Notes: generated from the sequence alone by a model not told the origin. Positions 2,807 to 53,371 are shown, counted from the first letter of the stretch. The stretch: 64,000 bases of DNA from Escherichia coli (GCF_003334315.1 NZ_QOWR01000003.1); one strand, 5' to 3'. Numbers and translations: made by a program.

Positions 2807-4114
<1,308 letters not shown>

Positions 4115-4359
4115 TCAAAAAATCACAGTGCTCGGTCAACTCTTACCCCGCAAGCACAGGTTGTTGGCTTCGCGGAACCGGGATGTTCTTATAATCAATC
4201 ACATTCCCTGTTACCAGAATCATCCCGAAAGCATTCAAATAGGACGCGGCATTATAGCGGCATCACTTTTATGAGTCGAGAACGGTTATTGCGCGCTGTC
4301 GCGTATTTTTTCACAATTCCCGGGCAATTTTCGTCTGAATGCTGGGCAAAAAGCGCAAA

Positions 4360-5070: not shown

Positions 5071-5649
5071 ATGTTCAAAAAAATCCTCTTCCCGTTAGTT
5101 GCTCTGTTTATGCTTGCAGGATGCGCAAAACCGCCAACAACTATTGAAGTTTCCCCGACGATTACACTGCCACAGCAGGATCCAAGCCTGATGGGCGTCA
5201 CCGTAAGCATTAATGGTGCCGATCAGCGTACCGATCAGGCGCTGGCAAAAGTCACCCGCGATAATCAAATCGTTACCCTGACCGCCTCCCGCGATCTGCG
5301 TTTCCTGCTGCAAGAAGTGCTGGAAAAACAGATGACCGCGCGTGGTTACATGGTTGGTCCGAATGGCCCGGTTAATCTGCAAATCATCGTTAGCCAACTG
5401 TATGCTGACGTGTCCCAGGGCAACGTGCGCTACAACATCGCGACCAAAGCGGATATCGCCATCATCGCTACCGCGCAGAATGGCAACAAAATGACCAAAA
5501 ACTATCGTGCCAGCTACAACGTTGAAGGTGCGTTCCAGGCCTCCAACAAAAATATCGCCGATGCGGTTAACAGTGTGCTGACCGATACCATCGCTGATAT
5601 GTCTCAGGACACCAGCATCCACGAATTCATCAAGCAGAACGCGCGTTAA
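5071..5649 (+). CDS. yajG: Lipoprotein YajG
   Basis: 192-aa product from ATG at 5071; signal peptide with lipobox LAGC; upstream ORF extension lacks support. Confidence 0.85.
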   Translation: MFKKILFPLVALFMLAGCAKPPTTIEVSPTITLPQQDPSLMGVTVSINGADQRTDQALAKVTRDNQIVTLTASRDLRFLLQEVLEKQMTARGYMVGPNGPVNLQIIVSQLYADVSQGNVRYNIATKADIAIIATAQNGNKMTKNYRASYNVEGAFQASNKNIADAVNSVLTDTIADMSQDTSIHEFIKQNAR

Positions 5650-7168: not shown

Positions 7169-7624
7169 TCTGTAAATATTATTTAGCTGTAGTAATCACT
7201 CGCCGTAATTATTACGGCTAAATAAACATCAGTATCGCTTATTAATATTTGTTCTTTTGTGCGGCTTAGCGTTTGGAAATTATTGGCGCCATTTATAAAT
7301 TCTATTTTTCTTACACGATTCAGCTAATGAGTCTTTATTTTCTCATCACCCAGTTGTCACTCTAATGATAATTATTTGTTAAATAATTGTTTTATTTCAC
7401 ATTGGTTATACCAATTGCCCGCCCAGACTCCTTCAGCACTCCCCTTTTGTTATAACGCCCTTTTGCAACAGCTTCTTAAAATCAACCTGATATGTTTTGC
7501 AACATATGTGACCTGGCAGCCAAATCCAAGTAACAGGAATTTAATCATGTTTACAGTAATGTAACCTTCCCGTAAAATGCCCACACACTTTAAACGCCAC
7601 CAGATCCCGTGGAATTGAGGTCGT

Positions 7625-49115: not shown

Positions 49116-50027
49116 ATGCTGTGGTTCAAAAATTTAATGGTTTACCGTCTTAGCCGCGAGATTTCGCTGCGTGCAGAAGAGATGGAAAAACAGCTAGCCT
49201 CGATGGCATTTACCCCATGCGGCAGCCAGGACATGGCGAAGATGGGCTGGGTTCCTCCGATGGGATCGCACAGCGATGCGTTAACGCACGTTGCCAATGG
49301 TCAAATTGTTATCTGCGCGCGCAAAGAAGAAAAAATCCTCCCGTCTCCGGTGATTAAACAGGCGCTGGAAGCGAAAATCGCCAAACTGGAAGCGGAACAG
49401 GCGCGTAAGCTGAAGAAAACCGAAAAAGATTCGCTGAAAGACGAAGTGCTGCACTCTCTGCTGCCGCGTGCTTTCAGCCGTTTTAGCCAGACAATGATGT
49501 GGATCGACACGGTTAACGGTTTGATTATGGTGGACTGCGCCAGTGCCAAAAAAGCGGAAGATACGCTGGCATTACTGCGTAAAAGCCTGGGGTCGTTACC
49601 GGTTGTACCATTGAGCATGGAAAACCCGATTGAACTGACGCTGACCGAATGGGTACGTTCCGGTAGTGCGGCACAGGGCTTCCAGCTGCTTGATGAAGCC
49701 GAGCTGAAATCGTTGCTGGAAGATGGCGGCGTGATCCGCGCGAAGAAACAAGATCTGACCAGCGAAGAGATCACCAATCACATTGAAGCCGGAAAAGTGG
49801 TGACTAAACTGGCGCTCGACTGGCAGCAGCGCATTCAGTTTGTGATGTGCGACGATGGTTCGCTCAAGCGTCTGAAGTTCTGCGACGAGCTGCGCGATCA
49901 AAACGAAGATATCGACCGTGAAGATTTCGCCCAGCGTTTTGATGCCGATTTCATCCTGATGACTGGTGAACTGGTAGCGTTAATTCAAAACCTGATTGAA
50001 GGATTAGGTGGCGAAGCACAACGTTAA
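49116..50027 (+). CDS. rdgC: Recombination-associated protein RdgC
   Basis: 303-aa product [27 protein letters not shown]... from ATG at 49116. Confidence 0.94.
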
Positions 50028-50044
50028 TTGCTGATTTTCCTTTA

Positions 50045-50083
50045 ATGCCGGATGCGACGCCTGCCGCGTCTTATCCGGCGTAC
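50045..50083. repeat. REP element
   Basis: ATGCCGGATGCGACGCCTGCCGCGTCTTATCCGGCGTAC 18 nt after the rdgC stop. Confidence 0.8.
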
Positions 50084-50184
50084 GAAGCCACACCAGGCAT
50101 ATAATTATTCGCTACGGCGAGCAATAATTTTTAGCGCAGCAATATTATGCGTTTTACGCTGTAACTTGCTCCATGGACGTTGTG

Positions 50185-50466
50185 TCATTGTTTTTCCTCA
50201 AGCCGGTGACGCGCTTCACTGCGAATTTTCCGCGTTGCCCCGGTTTTCACTAAATCACGTAACAGCGAAAGATCGGGTTGTTCGACAAATAAGAGTAATG
50301 ATGGATCCTCTTTTAACCACGCCGTTTTCACATCGGCAGCCAGCTGTGGATTATTAATAGCCAGCGACCGATCCTGAGGCTCAGTCAATGTCGTTAACAA
50401 CAACGCCGGGGTATGTGCGTTGCGCAATGCCGTTTGGCGTAAATGATCATTGCGACTTTGCAGCAA
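50185..50466 (-). pseudogene. ykiA: ATG-less ORF; probable gene remnant (ykiA-like)
   Basis: 93-codon minus-strand frame containing no ATG/Met codon at all (track start is TTG), no SD, adjoining an AT-rich stretch; position between rdgC and ppnP matches where I recall ykiA in K-12. Confidence 0.4.
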
Positions 50467-50673
50467 TGCACGCCACCATTCATCATCTGATTTATCTTTT
50501 ATCGTAGCCAGTTCCGCAACAATATCTGGAGATCTTCACTGATATTTATATCAACCTTGATAAATTATGAATATATCGGAAATTGAAAAAATCGCAGCAA
50601 AGGAAATATTATTATGGGTTAAAGAAAGGATATTTCAGAAAAATGCCCTCCCGTTCAAGGGGAAGGCGAGGAA

Positions 50674-50958
50674 TTACAGATAGCGGCACAGATAAGAGGT
50701 GGGTTCGGCAACTTGCAGATGAAACTCACTGTGACCGGGAACATTAAACACCGAACCGGCTTCATACACTTGCCAGTCGGTCGCGTCAGGCAGTAACACA
50801 TTCAGCGCGCCACTGATTACCGTCATCTCTTCCGGCTCAGCGGTGCTGAAGGTGTATTCGCCTTCAACCATAACACCCACGCTGGCGCGACCAGTGCTGC
50901 TGCTGGAAAAGCCGATCGATTTCACTTTGCCGGAAAAGTACTCATTACTTTGAAGCAT
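50674..50958 (-). CDS. ppnP: Pyrimidine/purine nucleoside phosphorylase PpnP (formerly YaiE)
   Basis: 94-aa [40 protein letters not shown]... Confidence 0.93.
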
Positions 50959-51029
50959 AAACTGGCCCTGTCTGGTAGTTGAACATCTACTTCACTATAG
51001 GGGCCAGAGGCGCTGGCTGTCACGCAAAA

Positions 51030-51707
51030 TTACACCAGTAATTCCGCAGCCAGCCGTGCAATCAATACGTTAGAGAGCAAGACAGGAACATCGAGCTGTT
51101 TTTGCAGTAAATCGCGATGACGCTGGTTAAATCCCAAACAATCCAGCATGATGACATCAGCCCCTTTTGCCAGTAATTCTTTCCCGGCATCAATGATTTT
51201 TTGTTCTGAATCATGAATGGGGTTACCCAATGAAAATACCGGCGGTTTCTGCAAAATTTGCCATTTTTGCGCCTGAACGGTCAGCAACTCCTCAACCGGT
51301 ACGATAACCCCTACCTGATGATCTTCAACAATAGAGGAAACCAGCGGTGGCAATATCCGCGACGGCTCAAGAAAGATCGTATTACGCGCAGTCATACTAC
51401 TAATGTTTGCCGTACTCATTAATATAATGACGTCGTAGCCCTGATTATCGAGCACTTCAACCACACCTTGCAGGTCACGCTCTACTTTGCGACGCGAAAC
51501 ATGGGCCAGATGGTTGTCATTTAATAATGTGAGAATTGTGTCTTCGCCTGCTTCTGGCGCGTACTCCGCCATCACTTCTTCGCGGCTTAACTTCCCCAGC
51601 AGGCTATGATGGGAAATATTATCTTCGTCAATGTATTCTGTCAGGAGCGGCAAAACTTCCTGCATAGGTACAATGCCGATGGTTAGAATCGCCAACGACG
51701 CACTCAT
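51030..51707 (-). CDS. aroM: Protein AroM (function unknown)
   Basis: 225-aa ORF downstream of aroL-yaiA. Confidence 0.93.
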
Positions 51708-51964
51708 TGTTCTTCCACCTTACTTTTATTTCGTCGTTAATTACCGGGCAAGTGTTAAGCACCACTGCTGACACTTACTTGTGCTACAAATGACAAAAAG
51801 CGTAGCAGCAGACGTGCACGGCATAATGTAAAGATTCCAAATGATTCCAGTAATGGATTGTTATTGTTTAATATTCTAATTATTTGAAAAACATGAATTA
51901 TGAAAAATGTGACGCAGATCCCTTGTAGTGGCACTCAGAATCCCTTCCGAGCAGTCTGATGCGG

Positions 51965-52730: not shown

Positions 52731-52789
52731 CGTGGGTTTTCCCCAATAGGTCGCAATGCGGCGAAAGCCGGTGTCATGAGAATAGCGAT

Positions 52790-52809
52790 CATACCATCAA
52801 ACTAGTACA
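52790..52809 (-). promoter_or_regulatory. Probable TrpR operator in the aroL promoter
   Basis: Minus strand reads GTACTAGTTTGATGGTATGAT, containing the GTACTAGT trp-operator half-site overlapping a TATGAT -10-like hexamer. Confidence 0.4.
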
Positions 52810-52817
52810 ATTTCGAT

Positions 52818-52835
52818 TGTAAAGGAAAAATTCCA
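52818..52835 (-). promoter_or_regulatory. Possible TyrR box (weak)
   Basis: TGTAAA-GGAAAA-ATTCCA; one half-site matches the TGTAAA-N6-TTTACA consensus. Confidence 0.4.
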
Positions 52836-52893
52836 CTTAAAGTGAAAATCTCAATACACCCCTTACTATACCAATAAATATTCAAGAATGAAG

Positions 52894-52911
52894 TGTAAAT
52901 AATAAATTACA
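52894..52911 (-). promoter_or_regulatory. TyrR box (strong)
   Basis: TGTAAA-TAATAA-ATTACA, 11 of 12 match to TGTAAA-N6-TTTACA; overlaps the yaiI stop codon. Confidence 0.55.
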
Positions 52912-53371
52912 TTTGGCCGCGACTACGTTGCACTTCCAGCCACCATTTCTCCAGCTCCGCAGCAAAGGCCTGGCGGTCACGTTGTGAAAGACTATCTGGT
53001 CCGCCGGTCTGGATCCCACTGGCACGTAAGGTATCCATAAAATCGCGCATCGTCAGGCGCTCACGAATGGTCGCTGGCGTGTAACGTTCGCCGCGCGGAT
53101 TAATCGCCGCAGCGCCTTTCTCGATGGCTTCAGCAGCCAAAGGTATATCTGCGGTGATCACCAAATCGCCCGCTTCACACTGCCGGACAATTTCGTTATC
53201 GGCAACGTCGAAACCTGCCGCGACGCGCAGCGTACGAATAAATCGCGATGGCGGCACGCGTAAACTCTGGTTTGCTACCAGTACCAGCGGCATCTGCATA
53301 CGTTCCGCCGCGCGATACAAAATCTCTTTAATTACATTGGGACACGCGTCGGCATCCACCCAAATTGTCAT
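52907..53371 (-). CDS. yaiI: UPF0178-family protein YaiI (function unknown)
   Basis: 154-codon product [35 protein letters not shown]... from ATG (rc of 53369-53371); ORF track extension rejected. Confidence 0.88.

What the first reader, a model, noticed from the sequence alone, without database searches (positions are those of the whole stretch)
50185..50683. ATG-less ORF remnant (ykiA-like) next to a 27% G+C pocket between rdgC and ppnP
The 93-codon minus-strand frame at 50185-50466 contains no methionine codon at all and has no SD, so it looks like the 3' part of a decayed gene, not a functional ORF. Upstream of it, 50521-50640 is about 27% G+C by my count against roughly 50% for the flanking genes, and contains GATC-bearing palindromes such as GGAGATCT. 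A 38-codon plus-strand ORF (ATG 50567 to TAG 50683, [38 protein letters not shown]) without an obvious SD runs into the ppnP 3' end. This is the one place in the window that looks like a scar of gene loss or old insertion.
Basis: partly seen in the sequence, partly recalled or inferred. Interest (0 to 1): 0.4.

Follow-up and report, generated by a model that had tools for sequence, protein, structure and literature searches.

The report
Decayed ykiA–ykiD two-gene relic
The ATG-less frame is the already-annotated ykiA pseudogene: the tail of a 759-codon gene that, with a small partner gene, was inserted between ppnP and rdgC in an Escherichia ancestor and later mostly deleted, though its promoter and a 27-residue leftover peptide (YkiD) are still expressed.

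Summary
Window 50105-50673 is the E. coli K-12-type ykiD/ykiA locus. About 8% of complete E. coli genomes (O157:H7, O55:H7, O145 and others) carry an intact 2.9-kb insert at this site. It encodes a 759-aa protein with a signal peptide, a beta-helix and an LRV/HEAT solenoid, whose last 81 aa are Pfam DUF2773. A translationally coupled 151-aa SF0329-family protein follows it.

The window differs from that form by three deletions:
- 1069 nt, removing the start codon and 355 codons.
- 864 nt, in frame, between 12-nt repeats.
- 372 nt, in frame, between 10-nt repeats inside the SF0329 gene. This leaves the 27-codon ykiD, a peptide detected experimentally in K-12.

The 27% G+C pocket is not a scar. 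It is the operon's own upstream region, conserved in intact strains, and it holds the published BglJ-RcsB-activated ykiA promoter and the ppnP terminator. The AGATCT palindrome is a deletion junction. The 38-codon ORF is not conserved.

In 75 non-Escherichia enterobacterial species ppnP and rdgC lie 42-99 nt apart, so the insert is Escherichia-specific. It has decayed independently several times. Low interest.

The parts
50044..50080 (.). REP-type palindromic element just downstream of rdgC (rdgC stop codon at 50025-50027). It flanks the relic and is not part of it.
   Evidence: Sub-threshold Rfam naRNA4 (REP-derived) match at 50044-50079, E=0.012. The sequence is shown.
50105..50188 (-). ykiD, 27 codons plus stop. 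It is the in-frame internal-deletion relic of a 151-codon SF0329-family gene: residues 1-11 fused to the last 16 residues. It keeps the original Shine-Dalgarno sequence (GAGGAA), the ATG in the ATGA overlap, and the stop codon.
   Evidence: RefSeq annotates 'protein YkiD' here. The peptide MTQRPWSKLQRKTHNIAALKIIARRSE is listed under 'SPs detected in this study', coordinates 408947-409030 (PMC6001520). Alignments to intact alleles are, and the family consensus C-terminus KTHNxAAxKVIxxR.
50156..50165 (.). Junction of the 372-nt in-frame deletion inside the SF0329 gene. This is the surviving copy of an imperfect 10-nt direct repeat (CGCCGTAACT / CGCTGTAACT in intact alleles).
   Evidence: blastn overlap 50157-50166, gap L002 2659-3030, and the sequences on both sides.
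50185..50535 (-). ykiA pseudogene: 116 sense codons plus stop, with no start codon. Positions 50188-50526 correspond to the last 113 codons of the 759-codon gene. Positions 50527-50532 (TCTCCA on the minus strand) correspond to codons 355-356 (Ser-Pro) of the intact gene.
   Evidence: PGAP pseudogene 'missing N-terminus'. blastn to L002 3031-3400 and 4253-4270. Translations. Pfam DUF2773 E=4.9e-46 on residues 36-116.
50464..50466 (-). In the intact protein it is an internal Leu codon.
50515..50526 (.). Junction of an 864-nt in-frame deletion. This is the surviving copy of a 12-nt direct repeat (GATATTGTTGCG, Asp-Ile-Val-Ala, on the coding strand), found at L002 3389-3400 (one mismatch in O157, exact in UTME-7) and at L002 4253-4264.
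50530..50535 (.). AGATCT palindrome, holding the pocket's only GATC. It was created by the junction at 50532 of a 1069-nt deletion that removed the start codon and the first 355 codons. The junction has 1 nt of microhomology.
50533..50644 (-). Native 5' untranslated and promoter region of the lost operon, which is the A+T-rich pocket. It is conserved in strains with the intact operon. It contains the BglJ-RcsB-activated ykiA promoter reported in the literature. A sigma-70-like match on the minus strand has its -35 at 50638-50633 and -10 at 50616-50611.
   Evidence: 97% identity to L002 5340-5608, alignment, consensus scan. PMC3950696 gives lacZ fusions of the ykiA upstream intergenic fragment, 5'-RACE, and a binding site centred 79 nt upstream of the start site. 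The exact coordinates are only in a figure that I could not read.
50645..50667 (-). Intrinsic terminator of ppnP: an 8-bp stem with 6 G-C pairs, followed by ATTTTTCTGA.
   Evidence: It is conserved in all E. coli alleles aligned.
50567..50683 (+). The 38-codon ORF. It is most likely spurious and lies over the promoter, the terminator and the last 10 nt of ppnP.
   Evidence: TGG to TAG at codon 17 in strain UTME-7. Across 9 E. coli alleles there are 8 nonsynonymous (one nonsense) and 2 synonymous variant codons. No Shine-Dalgarno sequence.

Best explanation
Window 50105-50673 is the eroded remainder of a roughly 2.9-kb, lower-G+C, two-gene block. An ancestor of the genus Escherichia acquired it between the convergent genes ppnP and rdgC.

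The intact block encodes two proteins. The first is a 759-aa exported protein with a signal peptide, a bactofilin-like beta-helix and an LRV/HEAT alpha-solenoid. Pfam DUF2773 corresponds only to its last 81 residues. The second is a 151-aa SF0329-family protein, translationally coupled through an ATGA overlap.

In the lineage of this window three deletions occurred:
- A 1069-nt deletion removed the start codon and 355 codons.
- An 864-nt in-frame deletion between 12-nt repeats removed 288 more codons. What is left is the start-less 116-codon ykiA frame.
- A 372-nt in-frame deletion between 10-nt repeats shrank the SF0329 gene to the 27-codon ykiD.

The regulatory signals were spared: the promoter, the Shine-Dalgarno sequence and the ATG of the second gene. 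So the relic is still transcribed from the BglJ-RcsB-activated promoter in the A+T-rich pocket, and the YkiD peptide is still made. Both of those facts come from the literature. That neither relic product has a selected function is my inference.
For: Annotation and synteny:
- RefSeq calls 50185-50526 a DUF2773 pseudogene missing its N-terminus, and 50105-50188 YkiD.
- O157:H7 FORC_044 and strain UTME-7 have the intact genes at the same site.

Junctions:
- Resolved to the base.
- The same 1934-nt junction occurs in the K-12-like record L001 and in three other deleted strains (NC101, JNEC-KY173, APEC E19035), as well as in the SF0329-only form.
- Escherichia sp. MOD1-EC7003 is the predicted intermediate, with that junction plus an intact SF0329 gene.

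Counts among 5426 complete E. coli genomes:
- 447 keep the 1.9-kb 5' part of the large gene.
- 921 keep the SF0329 interior.
- 4544 have the K-12-type interval.

Outgroups: 75 non-Escherichia loci have a 42-99-nt ppnP-rdgC gap and no homologue of either gene.

Selection and composition:
- Intact alleles are under purifying selection. pN/pS is 0.21-0.33 for the large gene and 0.06-0.11 for SF0329.
- G+C of the insert is 42-45% against 51-52% for the flanking genes.

Expression (literature): PMC3950696 for the ykiA promoter and PMC6001520 for the YkiD peptide.

Protein architecture.
Against: - The ykiA frame has stayed open in all K-12-type alleles sampled, and the one indel seen in it (NC101 and JNEC-KY173) is 3 nt. 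This could hint at residual constraint. However, the K-12 versus APEC E19035 comparison has only 3 synonymous and 5 nonsynonymous differences, so it has no power.
- YkiD is demonstrably translated, so 'relic without function' is an inference.
- Whether the two deletions in the large gene were separate events or one complex event cannot be decided from the sequence.
Confidence: 0.93

Rival explanations
1. YkiA is a real small protein (93 aa from TTG 50466, or the 113 aa of older annotations). It would be translated from a non-ATG start and act as a free-standing DUF2773 domain.
For: The frame is open in every K-12-type allele sampled, and the only indel seen is in frame. The locus has an active, regulated promoter (PMC3950696). 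Pfam DUF2773 scores very well on it. A GGTGG lies 6 nt before the TTG.
Against: It aligns end to end with residues 647-759 of a 759-aa exported repeat protein, and it lacks the signal peptide and the start codon. PGAP flags it as a pseudogene. The whole remnant is deleted in the SF0329-only form, and IS1 replaces the interval in some strains. Compared with K-12, the alleles of NC101, JNEC-KY173 and APEC E19035 carry several non-conservative substitutions. Pfam DUF2773 scores higher on this fragment (155 bits) than on the intact protein (134 bits). That suggests the family was built on such fragments.
Confidence: 0.05
2. YkiD is a newly functional micro-protein that arose from the deletion and is maintained by selection, rather than a passively translated leftover.
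For: The peptide was detected from a chromosomal SPA tag in rich medium (PMC6001520). The deletion is exactly in frame and keeps the Shine-Dalgarno sequence, the ATG and the native C-terminus. The ORF is annotated in most K-12-type genomes.
Against: NC101, JNEC-KY173 and APEC E19035 encode MTQRPWSKLQHKTHNIAALRIIARCS, with three substitutions and an earlier stop within 27 codons. The peptide joins 11 N-terminal and 16 C-terminal residues of a globular alpha/beta protein, so it cannot fold like the parent. It falls below the SF0329 family model. In about 9% of genomes a different decay route was taken.
Confidence: 0.1
3. The 38-codon plus-strand ORF (50567-50683) encodes a real small protein.
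For: It has an ATG start, and the frame length is the same in 8 of 9 E. coli alleles. A sigma-70-like match on the plus strand lies at 50583-50612, but that is inside the ORF.
Against: Strain UTME-7 has a nonsense codon at position 17. Variant codons split 8 nonsynonymous to 2 synonymous. There is no Shine-Dalgarno sequence. The sequence is explained by other functions: the ykiA promoter region and the ppnP terminator. It is not annotated in any RefSeq record inspected.
Confidence: 0.03

Closest known systems
ykiA (b0392) pseudogene and ykiD small-protein gene of E. coli K-12
   Same: Same sequence and same neighbours (mak-rdgC-ykiD-ykiA-ppnP-aroM-yaiA). The YkiD peptide is identical. The window interval is 99.9-100% identical to K-12-type genomes.
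   Different: Nothing substantive. The window differs by about 1 nt in 701 from K-12 laboratory strains. In the papers I could search, YkiD is not described as a deletion relic of an SF0329 gene.
Intact DUF2773-domain protein (759 aa) plus SF0329-family protein operon of E. coli O157:H7 (WP_120795310.1 / WP_001303823.1) and strain UTME-7
   Same: Orthologous DNA at the same chromosomal site. The upstream region, the last 113 codons, the ATGA coupling, and the first 11 and last 16 codons of the second gene are all shared.
   Different: The window lacks 1933-1934 nt of the first gene and 372 nt of the second. The O157 allele of SF0329 also has an extra T that changes its last residues to NYCPP.
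LRV/HEAT repeat proteins and bactofilin-type beta-helix proteins
   Different: There is a signal peptide, so the protein is exported and not cytoskeletal. No catalytic or toxin domain was found. The window retains only the last few helical repeats.
Orphan immunity-gene arrays of polymorphic toxin systems (recombinase-associated 'acquired interbacterial defence' islands)
   Same: SF0329-family genes elsewhere sit in same-strand arrays of small genes. These lie next to a tyrosine integrase with Imm10, or with SUKH-3, Macro, DUF2314, WGR-DUF4240 and DUF7716 neighbours. The family is spread across phyla at about 60% identity.

Membership tests
Pseudogene (truncated relic of a longer gene) | Aligns to only part of full-length orthologues at the same chromosomal position | tested here: met
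   Positions 50188-50526 align to codons 647-759 of the 759-codon gene in O157:H7, UTME-7, L016 and E4930, all located between ppnP and rdgC.
Pseudogene (truncated relic of a longer gene) | Loss of the start codon and N-terminal signal needed for the native product | tested here: met
   The deletion spans L002 4271-5339, including the ATG and the signal peptide. There is an in-frame TGA at 50536-50538, and no ATG, GTG or TTG before 50466.
Pseudogene (truncated relic of a longer gene) | Relaxed selection on the remnant | tested here: inconclusive
   K-12 versus APEC E19035 remnant: 3 synonymous and 5 nonsynonymous differences, pN/pS 0.51, against 0.21-0.33 for intact pairs. There are too few changes for a test.
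Pfam DUF2773 (PF10971) | Significant match to the family HMM over its full length | tested here: met
   The remnant scores E=4.9e-46 on model positions 1-81 of 81. The intact protein scores E=1.5e-39 at residues 679-759.
SF0329 family (Pfam PF25753 / NCBIfam NF049912) | Match to the family model above its cut-off | tested here: not met
   YkiD (27 aa) matches no NCBIfam family. The intact 149-aa allele scores 93.7 bits against a cut-off of 60, and Pfam gives E=4.8e-22. YkiD descends from a member but is not itself a member.
SF0329 family (Pfam PF25753 / NCBIfam NF049912) | Descent of ykiD from an SF0329 gene: shared ends and shared position | tested here: met
   The first 11 and last 16 residues are identical to the 151-aa alleles of UTME-7, L016 and MOD1-EC7003. 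The deletion is 372 nt between 10-nt repeats.
Rho-independent terminator (of ppnP) | G+C-rich hairpin followed by a T run, directly after the stop codon | tested here: met
   Positions 50667-50645(-): 8-bp stem with 6 G-C pairs and tail ATTTTTCTGA, 7 nt after the ppnP stop.
BglJ-RcsB-activated promoter | Activation by BglJ-RcsB, a mapped transcription start, and a binding site whose mutation abolishes activation | not testable with these tools
   Reported for ykiA in PMC3950696. The coordinates are only in a figure. The consensus scan gives one minus-strand sigma-70-like site at 50638-50611.
Polymorphic toxin / immunity gene pair | The upstream protein carries a recognisable C-terminal toxin domain | tested here: not met
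   The 759-aa protein shows only a signal peptide, a beta-helix and an LRV/HEAT solenoid. It has no Pfam, NCBIfam or PADLOC hit other than DUF2773.
Polymorphic toxin / immunity gene pair | The small protein recurs in arrays of immunity genes | tested here: met
   L005, L006 and L007 show arrays with Imm10, SUKH-3, Macro, DUF2314 and DUF7716, next to an integrase in L006 and L007. L004 has a WGR-DUF4240 neighbour. This is contextual only; function was not tested.
Anti-phage defence system (PADLOC) | Match to any PADLOC model | tested here: not met
   Neither intact protein matches any family at E<=0.1.

The most novel reading that the evidence does not exclude
YkiD, listed among experimentally validated E. 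coli small proteins, would be a clean natural example of a 'relic peptide'. An in-frame microhomology deletion removed 124 of 151 codons of a conserved SF0329-family gene but kept its ribosome-binding site, start and stop. The cell therefore keeps translating a 27-residue fusion of the two ends, and this peptide could have acquired a function of its own. Separately, the ancestral SF0329 family would be a previously unrecognised, unusually conserved orphan immunity-type protein. It shows about 60% identity across Bacteroidota, Firmicutes and Proteobacteria, pN/pS of 0.06-0.11, and no solved fold relative.
Probability: 0.2. Interest if true: 0.4.

Novelty: already known. Interest (0 to 1): 0.18.

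Why it matters
The main value is in annotation.
- A catalogued 'validated small protein' (YkiD) and a Pfam domain of unknown function (DUF2773) both derive from fragments of decayed genes. This is a caution for small-protein catalogues and for families seeded on K-12 ORFs.
- The BglJ-RcsB 'target gene' ykiA in K-12 is a promoter driving a pseudogene. Its biological target should therefore be studied in strains such as O157:H7 that keep the 759-aa exported repeat protein and its SF0329 partner.
- The locus is also a compact, fully resolved example of gain in one genus followed by repeated independent loss through short-repeat deletions.

Tried and rejected
- PADLOC gave no match for either intact protein. 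NCBIfam matched only SF0329.
- PDB sequence searches found nothing significant.
- Rfam on 49900-51100 returned only a sub-threshold REP/naRNA4 hit.
- Literature searches for SF0329 and DUF2773 returned nothing relevant. One 'ykiD' search failed for lack of a slot and was repeated.
- I could not obtain the exact ykiA transcription start or BglJ-RcsB box coordinates. They are in a figure, and no supplements are held. I did not commit to my own attempts to place them by eye.
- I considered the large protein plus SF0329 as a toxin-immunity pair and rejected it as a membership claim. No toxin domain is present. The large gene occurs without SF0329 in other bacteria and in cryptic Escherichia clades. 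SF0329 occurs without the large gene in E. albertii.
- I considered a 5-nt 'filler' at the big deletion junction and rejected it in favour of two deletions. The 18 nt at 50515-50532 match L002 4253-4270 exactly.
- My first 'GC3' column actually measured codon position 1 for the minus-strand genes, so I do not use it.

Full report
**What is in the window.** The region is the E. coli K-12-type arrangement mak-rdgC-ykiD-ykiA-ppnP-aroM-yaiA. A megablast of 50000-50700 found the interval in 5425 of 5426 complete E. coli genomes. In 4544 of them one place covers at least 80% of the query. RefSeq annotates 50105-50188(-) as 'protein YkiD'. It annotates 50185-50526(-) as a DUF2773-domain pseudogene, 'incomplete; missing N-terminus'.

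**Checking the observation.**
- The 93-codon minus-strand ORF (TTG 50466 to TGA 50185) is real and has no ATG codon.
- The frame is in fact open from 50535, directly after an in-frame TGA at 50536-50538. That gives 116 sense codons, none of them a start codon before 50466.
- G+C of 50521-50640 is 26.7% against 51.6% for the window. Only 0.27% of 120-nt windows are that low.
- The pocket holds one palindrome, AGATCT at 50530-50535, with the pocket's single GATC.
- The 38-codon ORF 50567-50683 exists.

**The intact ancestor.** In O157:H7 strain FORC_044 (L002) and strain UTME-7 (L009) the same site holds two overlapping genes on the minus strand. One encodes a 759-aa 'DUF2773 domain-containing protein'. 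The other encodes a 149- or 151-aa 'SF0329 family protein'. blastn and MAFFT place the window against this block as follows:

| Window | L002 (O157:H7) |
|---|---|
| 49900-50166 | 2401-2668 |
| 50157-50526 | 3031-3400 |
| 50515-50532 | 4253-4270 (18 of 18) |
| 50532-50800 | 5340-5608 |

The window therefore differs by three deletions.
1. A 372-nt in-frame deletion inside the SF0329 gene, between imperfect 10-nt direct repeats (CGCCGTAACT / CGCTGTAACT). It fuses codons 1-11 to the last 16 codons and produces ykiD.
2. An 864-nt in-frame deletion in the large gene, between two copies of GATATTGTTGCG (Asp-Ile-Val-Ala).
3. A 1069-nt deletion from codon 355 back through the start codon, with 1 nt of microhomology. 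Its junction creates the AGATCT palindrome.

YkiD's C-terminus (KTHNIAALKIIARRSE) matches the SF0329 family consensus. The O157 allele instead has an extra T that changes its own C-terminus.

**The A+T-rich pocket.**
- Window 50532-50800 is 97% identical to the region upstream of the intact gene in O157:H7. It aligns without gaps in all E. coli alleles examined. So the pocket is the operon's native 5' region, not the scar.
- It contains the ppnP intrinsic terminator at 50667-50645(-).
- Salscheider et al. (PMC3950696) fused the intergenic fragment upstream of ykiA to lacZ and showed RcsB-dependent activation by BglJ. They mapped the transcription start by 5'-RACE and abolished activation by mutating a site centred 79 nt upstream. 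I could not read the coordinates, which appear only in a figure.
- VanOrsdel et al. (PMC6001520) list ykiD (408947-409030, identical peptide) among 'SPs detected in this study' by chromosomal SPA tagging.
- The relic is therefore transcribed, and its second cistron is still translated.

**The 38-codon ORF.** Across nine E. coli alleles it shows 8 nonsynonymous variant codons, including TGG to TAG at codon 17 in UTME-7, against 2 synonymous ones. It has no Shine-Dalgarno sequence. Its sequence is accounted for by the promoter and terminator. I regard it as spurious.

**Population and history.**
- Of 5426 complete E. coli genomes, 447 retain the 1.9-kb 5' part of the large gene. These are mostly O157:H7, O55:H7 and O145.
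- 921 genomes retain the SF0329 interior.
- The roughly 470 genomes with SF0329 but without the large gene represent a third form. It shares the 1934-nt junction but lost the ykiA remnant by a separate 319-nt deletion. All five examples inspected, including O104:H4, have a frameshifted SF0329 gene.
- NC101, JNEC-KY173 and APEC E19035 share both K-12 junctions.
- Some strains carry IS1 in or instead of the interval.
- A scan of species-representative genomes with PpnP returned 80 loci. In 74 of the 75 non-Escherichia loci (Citrobacter, Salmonella, Enterobacter, Kosakonia, Buttiauxella, Cedecea, Raoultella and others) rdgC is directly convergent with ppnP; in the remaining one the stored sequence ends before rdgC. 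The gap, measured in ten of them, is 42-99 nt. No homologue of either gene was found.
- Within Escherichia the block decays in different ways:
  - Strains E4930 and E1V33 keep the large gene (71-73% aa identity) but only the last 20 codons of SF0329.
  - E. albertii keeps SF0329 (87%) but only the ends of the large gene.
  - MOD1-EC7003 has the K-12 1934-nt junction with an intact SF0329 gene, which is the predicted intermediate.
  - Two further representatives have lost nearly everything.
- The block is thus an Escherichia-specific insertion with lower G+C (42-45% against 51-52% for the flanks), followed by repeated independent loss.
- Where the genes are intact they are under purifying selection. 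pN/pS is 0.21-0.33 for the large gene and 0.06-0.11 for SF0329.

**What was lost.**
- The 759-aa protein has an N-terminal signal peptide, a beta-helix (residues 68-176) and an all-helical solenoid running to the C-terminus. The AlphaFold2 model has pLDDT 91.7.
- An exhaustive HMMER search found 169 relatives, about 35 of them with E-value up to 1e-30, mostly full-length proteins at 25-35% identity. Their members hit Pfam LRV_2, LRV and HEAT_2. Their gene neighbourhoods are not conserved.
- Pfam DUF2773 covers only the last 81 residues. It scores higher on the K-12 fragment (155 bits) than on the intact protein (134 bits). The 'domain' therefore looks like an artefact of having been defined on the pseudogene.
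- SF0329 is a broadly distributed family: 533 hits at about 55-68% identity in Bacteroidota, Firmicutes, Proteobacteria and others. Its predicted alpha/beta fold has no solved relative.
- Elsewhere SF0329 genes sit in same-strand arrays of small genes beside integrases, with Imm10, SUKH-3, Macro, DUF2314, WGR-DUF4240 and DUF7716 neighbours. From my knowledge of polymorphic-toxin immunity islands this context suggests an orphan immunity-type protein. The large Escherichia protein has no toxin domain, however, and the two genes occur apart. I therefore do not file them as a toxin-immunity pair. No defence-system model matches either protein.

**Verdict.** The feature is an annotated pseudogene (ykiA) plus a catalogued small ORF (ykiD), so it is already known and of low interest. 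Four points appear to be new relative to the papers I could search: the base-level reconstruction of the three deletions, the origin of YkiD as an in-frame relic of an SF0329 gene, the identification of the pocket as the preserved promoter region, and the Escherichia-specific gain followed by multiple losses.

Noticed in passing
window 50044-50080: REP-type palindromic element between the rdgC stop and ykiD. Rfam naRNA4 (REP-derived) matches partially on both strands, below the gathering score (E=0.012 and 0.6).
   Followed up: partly
Pfam PF10971 versus window 50188-50535 and L002 3062-5338: The DUF2773 HMM scores higher on the K-12 pseudogene fragment (155.2 bits) than on the intact 759-aa protein (134.4 bits). 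The 'domain' is simply the last LRV-type repeats of a much larger protein, and the family seems to have been seeded on truncated ORFs.
   Followed up: partly
L002 2613-2640 (O157:H7 SF0329 3' end): The O157:H7 allele has one extra T in a T run. This changes the C-terminus to NYCPP and shortens the protein to 149 aa. UTME-7, L016, MOD1-EC7003 and E. albertii keep the family-typical ...KIIARR(S/T)E end (151 aa).
   Followed up: yes
L014 3115-3812; hits H1, H30, H120: IS1 copies are inserted into, or replace, the ykiA/ykiD interval in several E. coli strains. In STO_Bone1B the whole relic is gone and only IS1 lies between rdgC and ppnP.
   Followed up: partly
L006 1726-12483 and L007 635-8756 (metagenome contigs): SF0329-family genes lie in long same-strand arrays of 100-190-aa ORFs that start with a tyrosine integrase and include Imm10, Macro-like and DUF7716 genes. 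This layout resembles recombinase-associated immunity-gene islands.
   Followed up: partly
AFDB A0A0H3JEL4 (E. coli O157:H7, 770 aa): This is a second, 27%-identical paralogue of the large protein elsewhere in E. coli. It is variously named 'DUF2773 domain-containing bactofilin' and 'protein involved in detoxification of methylglyoxal'. Many database entries for it are fragments.
   Followed up: no
window 7221-7420, 51791-51940, 52781-52920, 57371-57490, 57721-58060: These are the other stretches of the window where 120-nt windows fall to 30% G+C or below. The one at 51791-51940 lies between aroM and yaiA.
   Followed up: no
PMC3950696, Table 1: Two of the ten BglJ-RcsB targets studied in K-12 are decayed genes. 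The authors describe molR as 'disrupted in K12'. They list ykiA as a 113-aa protein of unknown function, but it is a pseudogene. The regulon may be better studied in strains with intact copies.
   Followed up: no
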